DNA of 64,000 bases from Naegleria gruberi (GCA_000004985.1 GG738849.1); one strand, 5' to 3'; counted from the stretch's first letter, positions 1,579-26,027 are shown. The notes: generated by a model from the letters alone, not told the origin. Numbers and translations: made by a program.

Positions 1579-1789
1579 TATTTTTAATTATTAATATTTT
1601 TTTAACTTTGATGCAACCGTTAATAATTGTGTTTGAGCAAAGATTTGTGCTTCAACAAATTTATTTTTGTTCAAATTTACAAATATTAATGTGTTTTTTC
1701 AAATATTAAAAAGTCTGGTTTGGTTTCACGAAGCTCCAATAAACAATTTTCCTACAATATAAGATATATATGTTCATTATGAACATGAT

Positions 1790-1861
1790 TCCCGTGTAGT
1801 CCAATGGCTAGGATACCTGGCTTTCACCCAGGAGGTCCGGGTTCAATTCCCGGCATGGGAG
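1790..1861 (+). tRNA. tRNA-Glu (anticodon UUC)
   Basis: A 72-nt cloverleaf is visible in the sequence. It has a 7-bp acceptor stem (TCCCGTG/CATGGGA with one G-T pair), a D-arm GTCCAATGGCTAGGAT, an anticodon stem CCTGG/CCAGG with loop CTTTCAC (anticodon TTC) and a T-arm GGTTCAATTCC. It lies in the divergent intergenic region between the gene at 1..1578 and PGM. Confidence 0.85.
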
Positions 1862-2049
1862 AATCATTTTGTCAAATTTGTTTTTCAATATGAAAACCAC
1901 TCGATTTTTCAGCAGTTAAATAAATTCTTAATTTGAGAATATTGTATTTACAGTCTGATGATCTTAAAACCTTTTATGGCTCCATCCAAAAGAGTTCTCA
2001 ATCAGTAAGCTATTCTTTAAAAAAAATATAAAAACCTTTTTCTGTACAG

Positions 2050-3838: not shown

Positions 3839-5457
3839 TTATTGATTTTCATCAATTTTTTGTAGTAATTCCTTATCATAGCCAGGTGTGTAATATTTGA
3901 CAAGTTCTTCAGGATAAAGGTTGTTGATAAATTTGATACTTTCTTGCAGAGATTCTTCTTCTGTTTTGATTAATTGCAACTTTTGAAGACCCTTAGATTG
4001 AACAAATCTCTTCTTTGCTTCAACATCATCTGGTAAAAGAGCTTCAAATTGCTTGACAACATATTTCAAAATACTTTCTGGGGCCTTTTCAGAAAGTAAT
4101 GGATTAAGGGCATCAAGATATGTACATTTTTGTATAATTGCTTTGAGGGCTCTCTTTGACTTACTCTTCAAGTCTTCAGAAGCCTTGTCATCAAGGAAAG
4201 ATTCATTCAAAAGTGTCAAAATATTAGCTTCAGCAACGGCCTTTGCGTGTTCTGAACTGTGTCTACCAATTTGTCCCAAACTCCATGCAGCAGCTGCACG
4301 AAGGTGATCGGAATATGATGGTGACAAACAATTTCCTAGTGGTTGAACTGCCTTGGCCTTAATGACAGCAGTGGCCATTGTTTCTTGGAAGGCAGCAATA
4401 AATCCTAGAATCATAATACCTGGTAATTTGTTATCACCCTCTGCATTACTGATATAATCAACAATAGCTGGTAAACCACCAGCATTGACAATTAGTGAAG
4501 CCAATTCAGGATTGTGCTTTGATACTTGCATAATACAAGAGGCAGCATTCTTTCTGACAATTTCATCATCTGGGTCTTGTAATAAAGCAAAAATCTTTGG
4601 GAAAATTTCTCCTTCAACAACCAATTCTGCCAATTCAACAGAATGTTTAGCAATGAAGGCAAGACATTGACATGCTTGTCTCTTTACCATTGGATTGAGA
4701 ATGAGTGGTGTTATAACTGGAATACCTTCAGCATCAACTACAGATTGAGCTAGCTCAGGAGTGTGACTGCAAATATTGGCAAGAGATGAAATTGCGACCT
4801 TTTTCAGAGTTTGTTCTGGTTGTTGGGCACAAGTCAAAAGTAACCCCACACAACCATGATCTACACAAATCTGAGCCAACTCTGGTGTATGTATTGAGAT
4901 ATTTCCGATTGCATATGCTGCAGATTCCTTTACCAAAGGATCAAATTCATCCAAACATTTTACCAAAGCTTCTACAGATCCAGAATCAACAACAGCTTGT
5001 GCTAATCTTGGTCCGTGCTTGGCGATAGCTCGCAGAACGAAAGCTGCATGTCTTTGATAGTATTTCTAAACAATATTAAGACGACAATTATTTTAAATAA
5101 TTCGTGAAGAAACATACATTATTCTTGAGGATGGAAGCAACCAATTGAGGGACAATATCACTTGCAACGATCTTCTCGGCAAGTTGAGGGTTATAATTGG
5201 CCAATCTTCCCAATGCAAGAGCAGCATTTTGTTGAACACTTGGATCGCTATCGAGCAAAAGTGGACGGAGCAAATCCAGAACACCAGTTTCTTGTTGAAT
5301 CATAGCTAAAATCGTTCATCATTAATTTTGTCCTCCAATCATTTTACATACCTTCGATATGTCTTGGTTGTTTTACGAGTTCGGCAACACTATTGGCAAA
5401 CGTAATTCTTGCCTTCTTGTATGAAGCGAATACTTGTTGAATTTCCTTTGAGGCCAT
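3839..5457 (-). CDS. SPAG6: Sperm-associated antigen 6 / PF16 (armadillo-repeat flagellar central-pair protein), 3 exons
   Basis: Exons are 5457..5352, 5305..5118 and 5065..3839, with introns of 46 and 52 nt (GTATGT...TTTAG). The N-terminus MASKEIQQVFASYKKARITFANSVAELVKQPRHIE, and the ARM repeats through to the C-terminal YYTPGY, align with PF16/SPAG6. Confidence 0.85.
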
Positions 5458-23880: not shown

Positions 23881-24933
23881 TTATTGCATGGAACAAGTCT
23901 TCTTTTCACTATTCTTTACAACTTGCTTAAATGAAGGATCATTCCACACACAGATGGACTTGACCATCACTTCGTTCAGCTCCCTGATTCCAGTACCTTT
24001 CAGAGCGCTTGTTTCGGCAAGTAATTTTCCCTGTTCAAAACTTTGAATCTTTTTATGTTTTTTGATAAGTAATTCTCTGGTAAAGATTGGATCATCTCTA
24101 AAATCAATTTTGGTGCAAACAAGTGCAATTGGAGTTGTTGAACAATGATGCCTTAGTTCATTATCCATAGATGATTCTGAACAACAACTGAAACTCAAAA
24201 AGAATAAATCAGTTTGGGGATAAGAAAGTGGACGTAATCTGTGTATGATAGATAAATTCATTAAGTTCCAAAATTTAACAATATTATTGCTTTTTGATAA
24301 ATAAATAACTTCCCTAGGGAAGAAGGATAAATTACAGCACGCAGGGGGAGAAGTTCTTTTGCTTCCTTCCACATCATAGCCAACATTCAACCCAAAACAA
24401 CATCTGTCATTTACTTGAAGTTGTTGGTACATTGAAGAACAAGTGGTAATTGATACTTTGAACACCCTGTTTTTCTCTTGGTCTAATAAAGACTTGTATT
24501 GTTAATAAACTTCTATCTATAATAAATCATGAAAAAAAATCATACAACACCCTCAGTTGGTAGGAGGGGGTTTAAGACGGCCAAAAAGTGTAATTTATCC
24601 TTCTTCCCTTACCTATCAAAATCTTTTGAAAGGTCAATCAAAAATGTTTTGAATATTTTTTAAAATTACTAACCTTCTTGTCCTATGGTATCCCACAATC
24701 CAATACTTAAAGTTTTTCCATCATAGAAAAAATTGTATTGCTATCAAAAATTGTTGGTATATATTCGTGTGGAAAGGAATCGGTAGTTAGAGATATCCAA
24801 AGACATGTTTTACCCACAGCTCCATCACCTTATTTAAAATAATTAATTGGCATTCAATATTGAATAATAAATGATGACACTCACCAACTTGAACAATTTT
24901 AAAAGAATTTGCTGAACTGTTTTTCAAATTGTA
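23881..24933 (-). CDS. Rho-family small GTPase with CAAX box (CSMQ), 4 exons including a 10-nt micro-exon
   Basis: Exons are 24933..24885 (SFKIVQVG), 24828..24674 (GDGAVGKTC...EYIPTIFD...GLWDTIGQE), a micro-exon 24622..24613 (ATTTTGATAG, encoding DFD) and 24238..23881 ([11 protein letters not shown]...TKIDFRDD...CSMQ). Exon 2 has an apparent 1-nt frameshift in a homopolymer (A6 at + 24727..24732). There is no in-frame ATG upstream of exon 1; see the fusion finding. Confidence 0.7.
24317..24608. mobile_element. MITE-like element inside the Rho intron: 20-bp perfect terminal inverted repeats flanking about 252 bp
   Basis: + 24317..24336 (gggaagaaggataaattaca) is the exact reverse complement of + 24589..24608 (tgtaatttatccttcttccc). 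The element lies wholly within the 374-nt intron (24612..24239), which is by far the longest intron in this gene; the others are 51-56 nt. Confidence 0.4.
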
Positions 24934-26027
24934 CTTGAGAATTTCTTCTTTAGGAACGTAGATATCACTTCCACATTGTGACAAACCCTCAATATAACTG
25001 GTTCTATTATGGTGATCTCTGTTGGCTCATTAACTTGCTTCTTTTTGTCAATCTTGTGATAAGTACCACCAAATACAAAGTAATTCATAGCAATACTATC
25101 ATCTTCATTGGTCGCTTGGAATGGAACAGTTGTATGAAAGACGGGTCCAACATCTTGGCTTGTAAAAGTTTGAGAAAGTGAGTGAGTGTGGCTTACATCC
25201 CAACCATTCTTGATATTAATTAAATCAATATAGATACAATCCAAATGGTCAATTCTATCATTACAACCTCCAATGGAGTAAAGTCTTTTACCATTTTCTG
25301 ATTTTTCCAACACCAATGAATGACCAAATCTTGGAGCAAAGCCATCAAGTTCAGAAATTAATACCTCCGATTGACAAGTACCCTCTTTCACATCCAGAGT
25401 AGACAATTTAATCTTTACAAAATCTTTAACAAGATCAGTAGCCGATTTACCACCCAAAATATACCAATCACCAGTTTCTTCATCCAAAACACTAGCATGA
25501 TAATATCTTCCCATAAGTTCAATGCTCAATTCCATCAATTTCCATTCTCTACTCTTCAAATTGAAAATAAACAATTCATTCGATGGGAAACTGTTGTTAT
25601 CATCATACCCACCAAACACAACCAAATAATCACCATAAATAGTTGCTGATTGACCATAACGTGGAGTGATAATCTCATCACCACTAGGCTCCAGTAATCC
25701 CCACTCAAAAGTATCAAATCGATACGACCAAACATCATTATGAAAACCATTTGATTTCCCGCCAAAAATTACCATCTCATCACTACAATCATTCGATTTT
25801 CTTTTCACTAGACACGAGGAGTGGAAGTTACGAGCACTTGGTCCCCTATTATGTATTGTCTTGTTTTCCCACTTTTGTGAGGAAACATCCACTTGAATGA
25901 GATCGTTTACAAGTAGTTCGGAATTGACAAAGCCTCCGAAAAGATAAACTTTATCGTTATGAAAGATACCACTGTGACCAACACGAGAGGTTAATTGACC
26001 GAGGGGCAACGAAGATGTTAATAACAT
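24924..26027 (-). CDS. Kelch-repeat beta-propeller protein (367-aa ORF; possibly the N-terminal part of a Kelch-Rho fusion)
   Basis: ATG at 26027. There are five to six kelch blades (GHSGIFHNDKVYLFGG, VIFGGKSNG..DVWSY, VVFGGYDD..ELFIFN, YILGGKS, YSIGGCND). The last 63 nt (24986..24924) overlap Rho exon 1 on the same strand in another frame. Confidence 0.75.
   Translation of the reverse strand: MLLTSSLPLGQLTSRVGHSGIFHNDKVYLFGGFVNSELLVNDLIQVDVSSQKWENKTIHNRGPSARNFHSSCLVKRKSNDCSDEMVIFGGKSNGFHNDVWSYRFDTFEWGLLEPSGDEIITPRYGQSATIYGDYLVVFGGYDDNNSFPSNELFIFNLKSREWKLMELSIELMGRYYHASVLDEETGDWYILGGKSATDLVKDFVKIKLSTLDVKEGTCQSEVLISELDGFAPRFGHSLVLEKSENGKRLYSIGGCNDRIDHLDCIYIDLINIKNGWDVSHTHSLSQTFTSQDVGPVFHTTVPFQATNEDDSIAMNYFVFGGTYHKIDKKKQVNEPTEITIIEPVILRVCHNVEVISTFLKKKFSSTI

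What the first reader, a model, noticed from the sequence alone, without database searches (positions are those of the whole stretch)
24613..24622. 10-nt micro-exon (ATTTTGATAG) encoding D-F-D of the Rho DxxGQEDYDRLR motif
Exon 2 ends in phase 1 (...GQE G|GTTAGT). The [11 protein letters not shown] exon needs phase 2 (AG|A TTA CGT). Only a 10-nt exon between a 51-nt intron (24673..24623, acceptor CAAAAG) and the donor GTAAGG at 24612 reconciles the phases. It yields GQE-DFD-RLRPLSY, matching the universally conserved GQEDYDRLRPLSY. The acceptor AG and the next donor GT are only 10 nt apart, which is a hard case for exon definition.
Basis: partly seen in the sequence, partly recalled or inferred. 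Interest (0 to 1): 0.6.

Follow-up and report, generated by a model that had tools for sequence, protein, structure and literature searches.

The report
Inherited 10-nt micro-exon in decaying Rho gene
The ten bases are a genuine, inherited ultra-short exon of a Naegleria gruberi Rho-GTPase gene, and the same exon is found in a related gene, but the copy in this window looks like a broken gene that probably no longer makes a working protein.

Summary
The window is Naegleria gruberi. On the minus strand a Kelch-repeat ORF (26027-24925, annotated as a 367-aa protein) is followed by an unannotated Rho-GTPase region in four pieces. The 10-nt piece ATTTTGATAG (24622-24613) sits exactly as described: 51-nt intron upstream, GTAAGG donor downstream, and the phases give GQE-DFD-RLRPLSY. 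The motif AG-ATTWTGAYAG-GT occurs once in the window against 0.01 expected.

The decisive evidence is comparative. A homologous gene on contig L004 (its Rho half is 94% identical to an N. gruberi protein) has the same exon, ATTATGATAG. It has the same two intron phases, and the upstream intron aligns poorly. That exon is required for an intact 715-aa ORF. Relatives carry exons of 4, 6, 13 and 20 nt in the same switch-II stretch.

The window copy is degenerate. It has a -1 frameshift in exon 2 upstream of the micro-exon. It has lost the F-box-like block and two segments present in every relative compared. It also has a 294-nt inverted-repeat-bounded insertion in the downstream intron.

Verdict: a real ancestral micro-exon, probably now a relic in a pseudogene. 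The claim that only this exon fits the phases is overstated, because 30 segments fit mechanically.

The parts
24925..26027 (-). Kelch-repeat ORF (367 codons plus stop). This is the only part of the locus with a public gene model (P0001, 'predicted protein [Naegleria gruberi]').
   Evidence: 100% identity to P0001. Pfam Kelch/beta-propeller hits, E 1.9e-43. ORF seen in the frame-0 translation.
24885..24990 (-). Linker plus the end of Rho exon 1 (...[29 protein letters not shown]|). It is in a different frame from the Kelch ORF and has no ATG of its own. The 5' limit is uncertain.
   Evidence: Frame-2 translation. Aligns to the ...FTRDDILAYP...KMVTIG segment of relatives. The F-box-like block that relatives have between Kelch and this linker is absent.
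24829..24884 (-). Intron 1, 56 nt, GTGAGT...AATAAG, phase 1 in the first G of GDGAVGKT.
   Evidence: L005 has an intron at the same position and phase.
24674..24828 (-). Rho exon 2 ([30 protein letters not shown]...[18 protein letters not shown]|), 155 nt. It has a -1 frameshift at the T6 run in AATTTTTTC.
   Evidence: tblastn with Rac1 splits it into two frames. The as-is translation stops at [13 protein letters not shown]. Adding one T restores a reading that aligns with relatives.
24623..24673 (-). Intron 2, 51 nt, GTTAGT...CAAAAG, phase 1 in the first D of D-F-D.
   Evidence: L004 has an intron at the same position and phase (43 nt, GTAAGT...TTTTAG).
24613..24622 (-). The 10-nt micro-exon ATTTTGATAG = (G)AT TTT GAT AG(A), encoding D-F-D and two bases of R in switch II.
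   Evidence: Unique match to AG-ATTWTGAYAG-GT, 0.01 expected. Homologous 10-nt exon ATTATGATAG in L004, 9/10 identical, same phases.
24239..24612 (-). Intron 3, 374 nt, GTAAGG...ACACAG, phase 2 in the R after D-F-D.
   Evidence: The same intron position is found in L004, in N. lovaniensis P0004 and in L015/L018.
24316..24609 (.). 294-nt insertion-like segment inside intron 3, bounded by perfect 21-nt inverted repeats (AGGGAAGAAGGATAAATTACA). It starts 3 nt after the donor GT. Without it the intron would be about 80 nt.
   Evidence: the repeat finder. Only these two arms occur in the window. No other copy in the window or fetched loci. The arms pair in the MFE fold.
23881..24238 (-). Last Rho exon ((R)[10 protein letters not shown]...TKIDFRDD...SALKG...KKTCSMQ*), 118 codons plus stop. 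The CAAX box is retained. It lacks 7 aa (V.TKW.P) and 9 aa (RKMGC..YI) that all eight relatives have.
   Evidence: The conceptual Rho product hits Pfam Ras PF00071 at 96.6 bits.

Best explanation
The ten bases at 24622-24613 (minus strand) are an inherited micro-exon of a Naegleria gruberi gene. The gene belongs to the heterolobosean Kelch / F-box-like / Rho fusion family.

The exon supplies AT-TTT-GAT-AG. Together with the last base of exon 2 and the first base of the last exon, this encodes D-F-D-R of the switch-II motif DTxGQE-DYD-RLRPLSY.

In intact family members each short flanking intron (42-60 nt, strong GTAAGT-type donor) is presumably recognised and removed as its own unit (intron definition, possibly sequentially). 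That would explain why an exon of 10 nt, or even 4 nt, is tolerated. This step is inferred, not shown.

In this window the gene copy has decayed:
- The F-box-like block is deleted and the Kelch and Rho parts are in different frames.
- Exon 2 has a -1 frameshift upstream of the micro-exon.
- Two universally conserved G-domain segments are deleted in frame.
- A 294-nt inverted-repeat-bounded segment has landed in the downstream intron, 3 nt from the donor GT.

The micro-exon is therefore most likely a still-recognisable relic in the pseudogenised 3' half of the locus. The Kelch ORF may or may not still be expressed on its own.
For: **Shown**
- Coordinates, phases and the reading GQEDFDRLRPLSY.
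- The flanked motif is unique in the window, 0.01 expected.
- L004 has exons of 1721/20/10/13/384 nt and introns of 48/43/42/42 nt. They give an intact 715-aa ORF only if ATTATGATAG is included.
- In the window-vs-L004 alignment the exon bases and splice dinucleotides match, while the upstream intron aligns poorly and needs gaps.
- In an NJ tree, window, L004 and L005 form one clade apart from the N. fowleri / N. lovaniensis genes.
- The phase-2 intron in the R of DYD-R also occurs in N. lovaniensis P0004. That GenBank protein can only be reproduced with exons of 4 nt (ATCG) and 6 nt (ATTAAG) between GTAAGT introns of 53/52/49 nt.
- That annotation used BRAKER1 with RNA-seq (PMC6125883).
- Willaertia magna P0144 has a 13-nt exon in the same stretch.

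**Decay of the window copy**
- Frameshift and premature stop.
- About 100 aa holding the LNDDIFRxILSFL...LRICQLT block, plus 16-17 and about 20 further aa, are missing only in the window.
- The 7-aa and 9-aa segments present in all eight relatives, including Acrasis, are missing only in the window.
- The Ras-family score is lower than for L004, 96.6 against 130.9 bits.
- The inverted-repeat insertion.
- The public model covers only the Kelch ORF.
Against: - There is no RNA evidence for this locus. No protein containing GQEDFDRLRPLSY, and no independent assembly of the locus, is in the searched collections.
- All six splice dinucleotides, the D-F-D coding, a 118-codon open last exon and the CAAX box CSMQ are still intact. 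By my estimate from base composition, the chance of that exon staying open without selection is about 1e-4. So decay is recent, or the single-base frameshift in a T run is an assembly error and the gene is alive.
- A hypothetical 47-nt intron (25034-24988, GTTAAT...TTGAG) could join the Kelch and Rho frames. The frame change at the junction is therefore not proof of a break.
- The closest relative by distance tree, L005, lacks the micro-exon. It has one intron 4 nt upstream and none at R. The history therefore needs at least one intron loss or shift.
- The NJ tree is a simple distance tree without support values.
Confidence: 0.7

Rival explanations
1. The gene is alive. The T6 run is an assembly or sequencing error (true T7). 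A short unrecognised intron joins the Kelch ORF to the Rho exons. The locus then encodes a divergent Kelch-Rho protein without an F-box, and the 10-nt exon is spliced into its mRNA today.
For: - All splice sites, the D-F-D coding and the CAAX box are intact.
- The last exon is open for 118 codons.
- One added T restores a reading that aligns without extra gaps to relatives.
- In-frame Kelch-to-Rho joins by GT...AG pairs exist, for example the 47-nt 25034-24988.
- The conceptual product still passes Pfam Ras.
Against: - The 7-aa and 9-aa deletions remove segments invariant in length in all eight relatives.
- By alignment to Rac1 and the known Rac1 fold, these lie in helix alpha3 and in the strand before the SAK/SAL motif. 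A normal G domain is therefore unlikely.
- The F-box-like block that defines the family architecture is gone.
- The candidate joining intron has a weak donor (GTTAAT) and no support from relatives.
- The public annotation has no Rho model here.
Confidence: 0.22
2. Chance: the 10 nt are ordinary intron sequence that happens to fix the phase, and the Rho region is spliced differently or not at all.
For: Thirty AG...GT-bounded stop-free segments in the interval fix the phase mechanically, so phase repair alone is weak evidence.
Against: - Only this segment encodes D[FY]DR.
- The flanked motif is expected 0.01 times in the whole window.
- An independent homologue has the same exon at the same position with the same phases.
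Confidence: 0.03
3. The micro-exon is normally skipped, as in the public N. gruberi model P0121. That model reads GPE-GK-LRPLSY by using a GT 5 nt further into the intron and jumping to the ATTACG exon.
For: P0121 (GenBank/JGI 'rho family small GTPase', 94% identical to the Rho half of L004) has GPEGKLRPLSY. L004 DNA can produce that via GAAGGTAA|GTTTTT.
Against: - That reading deletes the D-Y-D-R present in eight of the nine aligned family members and in Rac1.
- It leaves a perfectly flanked, conserved ATTATGATAG unexplained.
- In the window the equivalent reading is impossible, because GAA GGT TAG is a stop.
- The basis of the P0121 model is not known to me.
Confidence: 0.05

Closest known systems
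Ultra-short micro-exons of eukaryotic genes (animals and plants; from general knowledge, not looked up here)
   Same: An internal coding exon far shorter than 30 nt, flanked by canonical AG and GT. It is needed to keep the frame and to encode conserved residues, and it is easily missed by gene finders. Here the public models for this locus and for the paralogue P0121 both omit it.
   Different: - The host is a heterolobosean amoeba with very short introns (42-140 nt in this family), so intron definition is the likely recognition mode rather than enhancer-dependent exon definition.
- No evidence of regulated inclusion.
- No paper on Naegleria micro-exons was found in the searchable library.
Rho/Rac small GTPases (Pfam Ras family PF00071), switch-II motif DTAGQEDYDRLRPLSY
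   Same: The conceptual product has GDGAVGKT, DTx[17 protein letters not shown], TKxD, SAL and a C-terminal CAAX box. Pfam Ras E 1.5e-27. About 37-63% identity to human Rac1 in pieces.
   Different: - It lacks 7 aa and 9 aa that all relatives have.
- It has I for A in DTAGQE and F for Y in DYD.
- It is frameshifted in exon 2 and is fused downstream of a Kelch propeller.
Heterolobosean Kelch / F-box-like / Rho fusion proteins: N. fowleri FDP41_007326, N. lovaniensis C9374_001827 / _004444 / _009358, Willaertia magna ABK040_012314, Acrasis kona 'ced-10'
   Same: - The same domain order, Kelch propeller then Rho with CAAX.
- 40-49% identity in the Kelch part.
- Shared intron positions in the Rho part.
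   Different: - The window copy has no F-box-like block.
- It is not annotated as a fusion.
- The 10-nt exon itself is shared only with L004. The others have different micro-exons or a single intron there.
MITE-like / inverted-repeat-bounded insertions in introns
   Same: A 294-nt segment with perfect 21-nt terminal inverted repeats inside an otherwise roughly 80-nt intron.
   Different: No clear target-site duplication, and no second copy in the window or in the fetched loci. Membership of a repeat family is unproven. It could be a local inverted duplication.

Membership tests
Micro-exon (internal coding exon of 30 nt or less) | Bounded by a 3' splice site AG upstream and a 5' splice site GT downstream, with plausible introns on both sides. 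| tested here: met
   CAAAAG|ATTTTGATAG|GTAAGG, with introns of 51 and 374 nt. AAG acceptors are also used in relatives' mapped introns.
Micro-exon (internal coding exon of 30 nt or less) | Inclusion is required to keep the reading frame and restores conserved residues. | tested here: met
   With it the product reads GQEDFDRLRPLSY. Without it the last exon is out of frame.
Micro-exon (internal coding exon of 30 nt or less) | Conserved as an exon in homologous genes. | tested here: met
   L004 has ATTATGATAG with the same phases, and it is needed for an intact 715-aa ORF. It is not present in L005, L007, P0002, P0003 or P0006.
Micro-exon (internal coding exon of 30 nt or less) | Present in the mature mRNA (spliced reads or cDNA). 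| not testable with these tools
   No transcript data for this locus. No protein with GQEDFDRLRPLSY in the 5.8-billion-protein collection. The ORF look-up found nothing.
Rho-family small GTPase (functional member) | Significant match to the Ras/Rho G-domain profile, with the G1, G3, G4 and G5 motifs and a CAAX box. | tested here: met
   PF00071 at 96.6 bits. [21 protein letters not shown] and CSMQ are read from the sequence.
Rho-family small GTPase (functional member) | Uninterrupted reading frame through the G domain. | tested here: not met
   A -1 frameshift in exon 2 gives a stop after [13 protein letters not shown] as the sequence stands.
Rho-family small GTPase (functional member) | Complete core secondary-structure elements. 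| tested here: not met
   The 7-aa (V.TKW.P) and 9-aa (RKMGC..YI) segments present in all eight relatives are absent. Their assignment to alpha3 and to the strand before G5 rests on the known Rac1 structure, not on a model made here.
Heterolobosean Kelch / F-box-like / Rho fusion family | N-terminal Kelch propeller homologous to family members. | tested here: met
   40-49% identity to P0002-P0007. Pfam Kelch hits.
Heterolobosean Kelch / F-box-like / Rho fusion family | F-box-like block (LNDDIFRxILSFL...LRICQLTxEDQFW) between Kelch and Rho. | tested here: not met
   A block of about 100 aa is present in all eight relatives and absent from the window.
Heterolobosean Kelch / F-box-like / Rho fusion family | Kelch and Rho parts in one reading frame or transcript. 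| tested here: inconclusive
   The frames differ and the Rho frame has no ATG. Hypothetical GT...AG joins exist but are unsupported.
MITE / DNA-transposon insertion | Terminal inverted repeats. | tested here: met
   21/21 perfect arms.
MITE / DNA-transposon insertion | Multiple copies in the genome and a target-site duplication. | tested here: inconclusive
   No other copy in the 64-kb window or in the fetched loci. The flanks (GGTA / AGGG) give no clean duplication. The rest of the genome is not available here.

The most novel reading that the evidence does not exclude
The switch-II coding stretch of heterolobosean Kelch/F-box-like/Rho genes may be a hot spot of intron gain, loss or sliding. 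Eleven different intron positions fall within 17 codons across nine genes. They leave exons of 4, 6, 10, 13, 13, 20 and 22 nt. If so, the Naegleria/Willaertia spliceosome would routinely join exons with essentially no lower size limit, and public annotations (here the N. gruberi models P0001 and P0121) would systematically miss them. The inverted-repeat element sitting 3 nt from a donor site would then hint that mobile DNA takes part in remodelling these introns.
Probability: 0.3. Interest if true: 0.65.

Novelty: new member of a known kind. Interest (0 to 1): 0.42.

Why it matters
The finding shows that N. gruberi gene models can miss exons of about 10 nt that encode invariant catalytic-switch residues. 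The paralogue P0121 is annotated as GPE-GK-LRPLSY instead of GPE-DYD-RLRPLSY, and the Rho half of this locus is not annotated at all.

It also gives a compact test case: several genes with 4- to 22-nt exons in one conserved motif. These could be used to study how an early-diverging eukaryote with very short introns splices adjacent introns that are only a few bases apart, and how intron positions turn over among paralogues.

For this particular locus the practical consequence is modest. The copy is probably a decaying gene.

Tried and rejected
1. **Intron to cure the exon-2 frameshift.** There is no GT between IPTIFD and YDGK (sequence), so this was rejected.
2. **Canonical intron joining the Kelch and Rho frames.** Seventy-nine GT...AG pairs work mechanically. 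None is supported by relatives, so this is left open.
3. **Other Rho genes or copies of the inverted-repeat element in the window.** None found.
4. **Synteny between the window and L004, L005 or L006.** Only the gene itself matches.
5. **Metagenome scan for AG-ATTWYGAYAG-GT, a 35-65 nt gap, then AG-AYTNMGNCC.** Eleven loci came back. Nine are chance hits in unrelated DNA. Two (L015 and L018, the same sequence) are a Rho gene with a 22-nt exon sharing only the downstream intron position. No further 10-nt exon was found within that intron-length limit.
6. **Independent assemblies or transcripts.** The exact-protein look-up of the last-exon ORF and of P0121 found nothing on record.
7. **Literature.** No paper on Naegleria micro-exons or on the Kelch/F-box/Rho family was found.
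8. **A P0121-like skipped reading for the window.** Impossible, because GAA GGT TAG is a stop.
9. **Rfam and tRNA scans.** Only an unrelated tRNA-Glu.

Full report
**Origin and layout**

The window has about 34% G+C. Its minus-strand ORF 26027-24925 is 100% identical to a 367-aa 'predicted protein [Naegleria gruberi]' (P0001). That protein is a Kelch beta-propeller (Pfam).

Immediately downstream, in other frames, tblastn with human Rac1 finds three pieces of a Rho GTPase. No other Rho gene is in the window.

Exact parts on the minus strand:

| Part | Coordinates | Length | Notes |
|---|---|---|---|
| Exon 1 end | 24885 | - | ...KIVQV G\| |
| Intron 1 | 24884-24829 | 56 nt | GTGAGT...AATAAG |
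| Exon 2 | 24828-24674 | 155 nt | - |
| Intron 2 | 24673-24623 | 51 nt | GTTAGT...CAAAAG |
| Micro-exon | 24622-24613 | 10 nt | ATTTTGATAG |
| Intron 3 | 24612-24239 | 374 nt | GTAAGG...ACACAG |
| Last exon | 24238-23881 | 358 nt | - |

**The observation**

It is correct as written. G|AT TTT GAT AG|A gives D-F-D-R, so the conceptual product reads [21 protein letters not shown]. Omitting the 10 nt throws the last exon out of frame.

AG-ATTWTGAYAG-GT occurs once on both strands of the window against 0.01 expected.

The statement that only this exon reconciles the phases is too strong. Thirty AG...GT-bounded, stop-free segments of length 3n+1 exist between the two exons, but only this one encodes D[FY]DR.

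**Comparative test**

The protein search found the family: Kelch, then an F-box-like block, then Rho. Members occur in N. fowleri (P0002), N. lovaniensis (P0003, P0004, P0006), Acrasis kona, and metagenome contigs. I fetched the DNA of seven relatives and mapped their exons.

Contig L004 (ENA metagenome) is the key case:
- Its Rho half is 94% identical to the N. gruberi protein P0121.
- Its sequence reads ...CCT GAA G|gtaagt...ttttag|ATTATGATAG|gtaatt...atttag|ATTACGTCCATTG|gtaagt....
- Its exons are 1721, 20, 10, 13 and 384 nt, and its introns 48, 43, 42 and 42 nt.
- Together they give an intact 715-aa ORF ending in CLVQ.

The 10-nt exon of L004 differs from the window's at one base (TAT for TTT, Y for F). 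Both junction phases are identical, and the next exon begins with the same ATTACGTCC. The upstream intron aligns poorly and only with gaps.

A distance tree puts window, L004 and L005 in one clade.

**Micro-exons are a family trait**

- The GenBank protein of N. lovaniensis C9374_004444 (P0004) can be reproduced from its locus by only one GT-AG model. That model has exons of 4 nt (ATCG) and 6 nt (ATTAAG) between three GTAAGT introns of 53, 52 and 49 nt.
- That genome was annotated with BRAKER1 using RNA-seq (PMC6125883). This makes read support likely, but I could not see the reads.
- Willaertia magna P0144 has a 13-nt exon, AGCTGGACCAGAG.
- An unidentified eukaryote in two JGI metagenomes has a 22-nt exon ending at the same phase-2 position in the R of DYD-R.
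- Across nine genes I count eleven intron positions within the 17 codons W56-Y72, in Rac1 numbering.
- P0002 and P0003 have no intron between GPE and DYD. Theirs lies 6 nt further 3'. L005 has one intron 4 nt upstream of the window's intron 2 and none at R. So the 10-nt exon is not universal in the family.

**State of the window copy**

It differs from every relative in ways that point to decay.

1. Exon 2 changes frame at a T6 run. As it stands, translation stops at [13 protein letters not shown]. One extra T restores [25 protein letters not shown], which aligns with relatives. No GT lies in the stretch, so no intron can explain it.
2. The block of about 100 aa with LNDDIFRxILSFL...LRICQLTxEDQFW, plus adjoining linker segments, is present in all eight relatives and absent here. 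The Kelch and Rho parts are in different frames, and the Rho frame has no ATG.
3. Two segments of fixed length in all eight relatives, V.TKW.P (7 aa) and RKMGC..YI (9 aa), are missing. By alignment to Rac1 and the known Rac1 fold, these fall in helix alpha3 and in the strand preceding the SAK/SAL motif.
4. Intron 3 holds a 294-nt segment bounded by perfect 21-nt inverted repeats that starts 3 nt after the donor GT. Without it the intron would be about 80 nt, typical for the genus (median 80 bp in N. lovaniensis).
5. The public annotation stops at the end of the Kelch ORF.

Against decay:
- All splice dinucleotides, the D-F-D coding, a 118-codon open last exon and the CAAX box survive.
- The break is therefore recent, or the frameshift is an assembly error.
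- I could not find an independent assembly or any transcript.

**Mechanism**

Shown: the exon's position, its phases and its conservation.

Inferred: in intact members each short intron with its strong donor is recognised as a unit (intron definition), perhaps one after the other. Exon length is then not limiting, and the 4- and 6-nt exons in N. lovaniensis argue the same way.

The minimum-free-energy fold of intron 3 pairs the two 21-nt arms. It also pairs the micro-exon end plus donor with a stretch 12-21 nt upstream of the 3' splice site (z = -2.4, mostly due to the arms). I draw no functional conclusion from this.

**Annotation consequence**

The N. gruberi model P0121 reads GPE-GK-LRPLSY. 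On L004 DNA that corresponds to using the GT 5 nt into the intron (GAAGGTAA|GTTTTT) and skipping the 10-nt exon. It removes the D-Y-D-R that eight of the nine aligned family members and Rac1 keep, so it is most likely a mis-annotation.

**Verdict**

The interpretation as a micro-exon is supported by homology. Its present-day use in this locus is doubtful, because the host gene copy looks pseudogenised.

It is a new, unannotated example of a known kind of feature. The wider pattern in the family is the more interesting lead.

Noticed in passing
L003 4968-5131 (N. lovaniensis PYSW02000021.1, gene C9374_004444): The GenBank protein can only be reproduced with two consecutive exons of 4 nt (ATCG, 5021-5024) and 6 nt (ATTAAG, 5077-5082). 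They are separated by 53-, 52- and 49-nt introns that all start GTAAGT, and together encode part of E-Y-D-R-L-R.
   Followed up: yes
L004 2019-2236 (ENA ERZ929261 contig k127_519858): Three consecutive micro-exons of 20, 10 and 13 nt encode WDTAGPE / DYD / RLRPL. The four introns are 42-48 nt. The spliced ORF is an intact 715-aa Kelch/F-box-like/Rho protein.
   Followed up: yes
P0121 (N. gruberi 'rho family small GTPase', 203 aa); equivalent DNA L004 2080-2195: The public model reads GPE-GK-LRPLSY. It skips the 10-nt exon by using a GT 5 nt into the intron. It also starts at an internal Met of the linker, so the Kelch/F-box-like part of that gene is not in the model. Probable mis-annotation.
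   Followed up: partly
L020 2189-2304 (Willaertia magna JBEGDK010000112.1, ABK040_012314): A 13-nt exon, AGCTGGACCAGAG, encodes (T)AGPE in the same switch-II stretch. Its intron positions differ from those in Naegleria.
   Followed up: yes
Switch-II coding stretch of nine related genes (window, L001-L005, L007, L015/L018, L020): Eleven different intron positions fall within 17 codons (W56-Y72, Rac1 numbering). One further paralogue (L008) has none. This suggests unusually high intron turnover at this spot.
   Followed up: partly
window 24316-24609: A 294-nt segment with perfect 21-nt inverted terminal repeats lies inside intron 3, 3 nt after the donor GT. The right arm plus its flank forms a 14-nt palindrome, CTTCCCTAGGGAAG. 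There is no second copy in the window and no clear target-site duplication.
   Followed up: partly
One added T restores the family reading.
   Followed up: yes
L015 587-661 and L018 544-618 (JGI metagenome contigs): A Rho gene of an unidentified eukaryote (41-43% G+C). It has a 22-nt exon, TTGCCCAAGAAGATTATGACAG, and the same phase-2 intron in the R of DYD-R as the window.
   Followed up: partly
window 1789-1862 (+): tRNA-Glu (anticodon TTC), the only Rfam/ARAGORN hit in the window.
   Followed up: no
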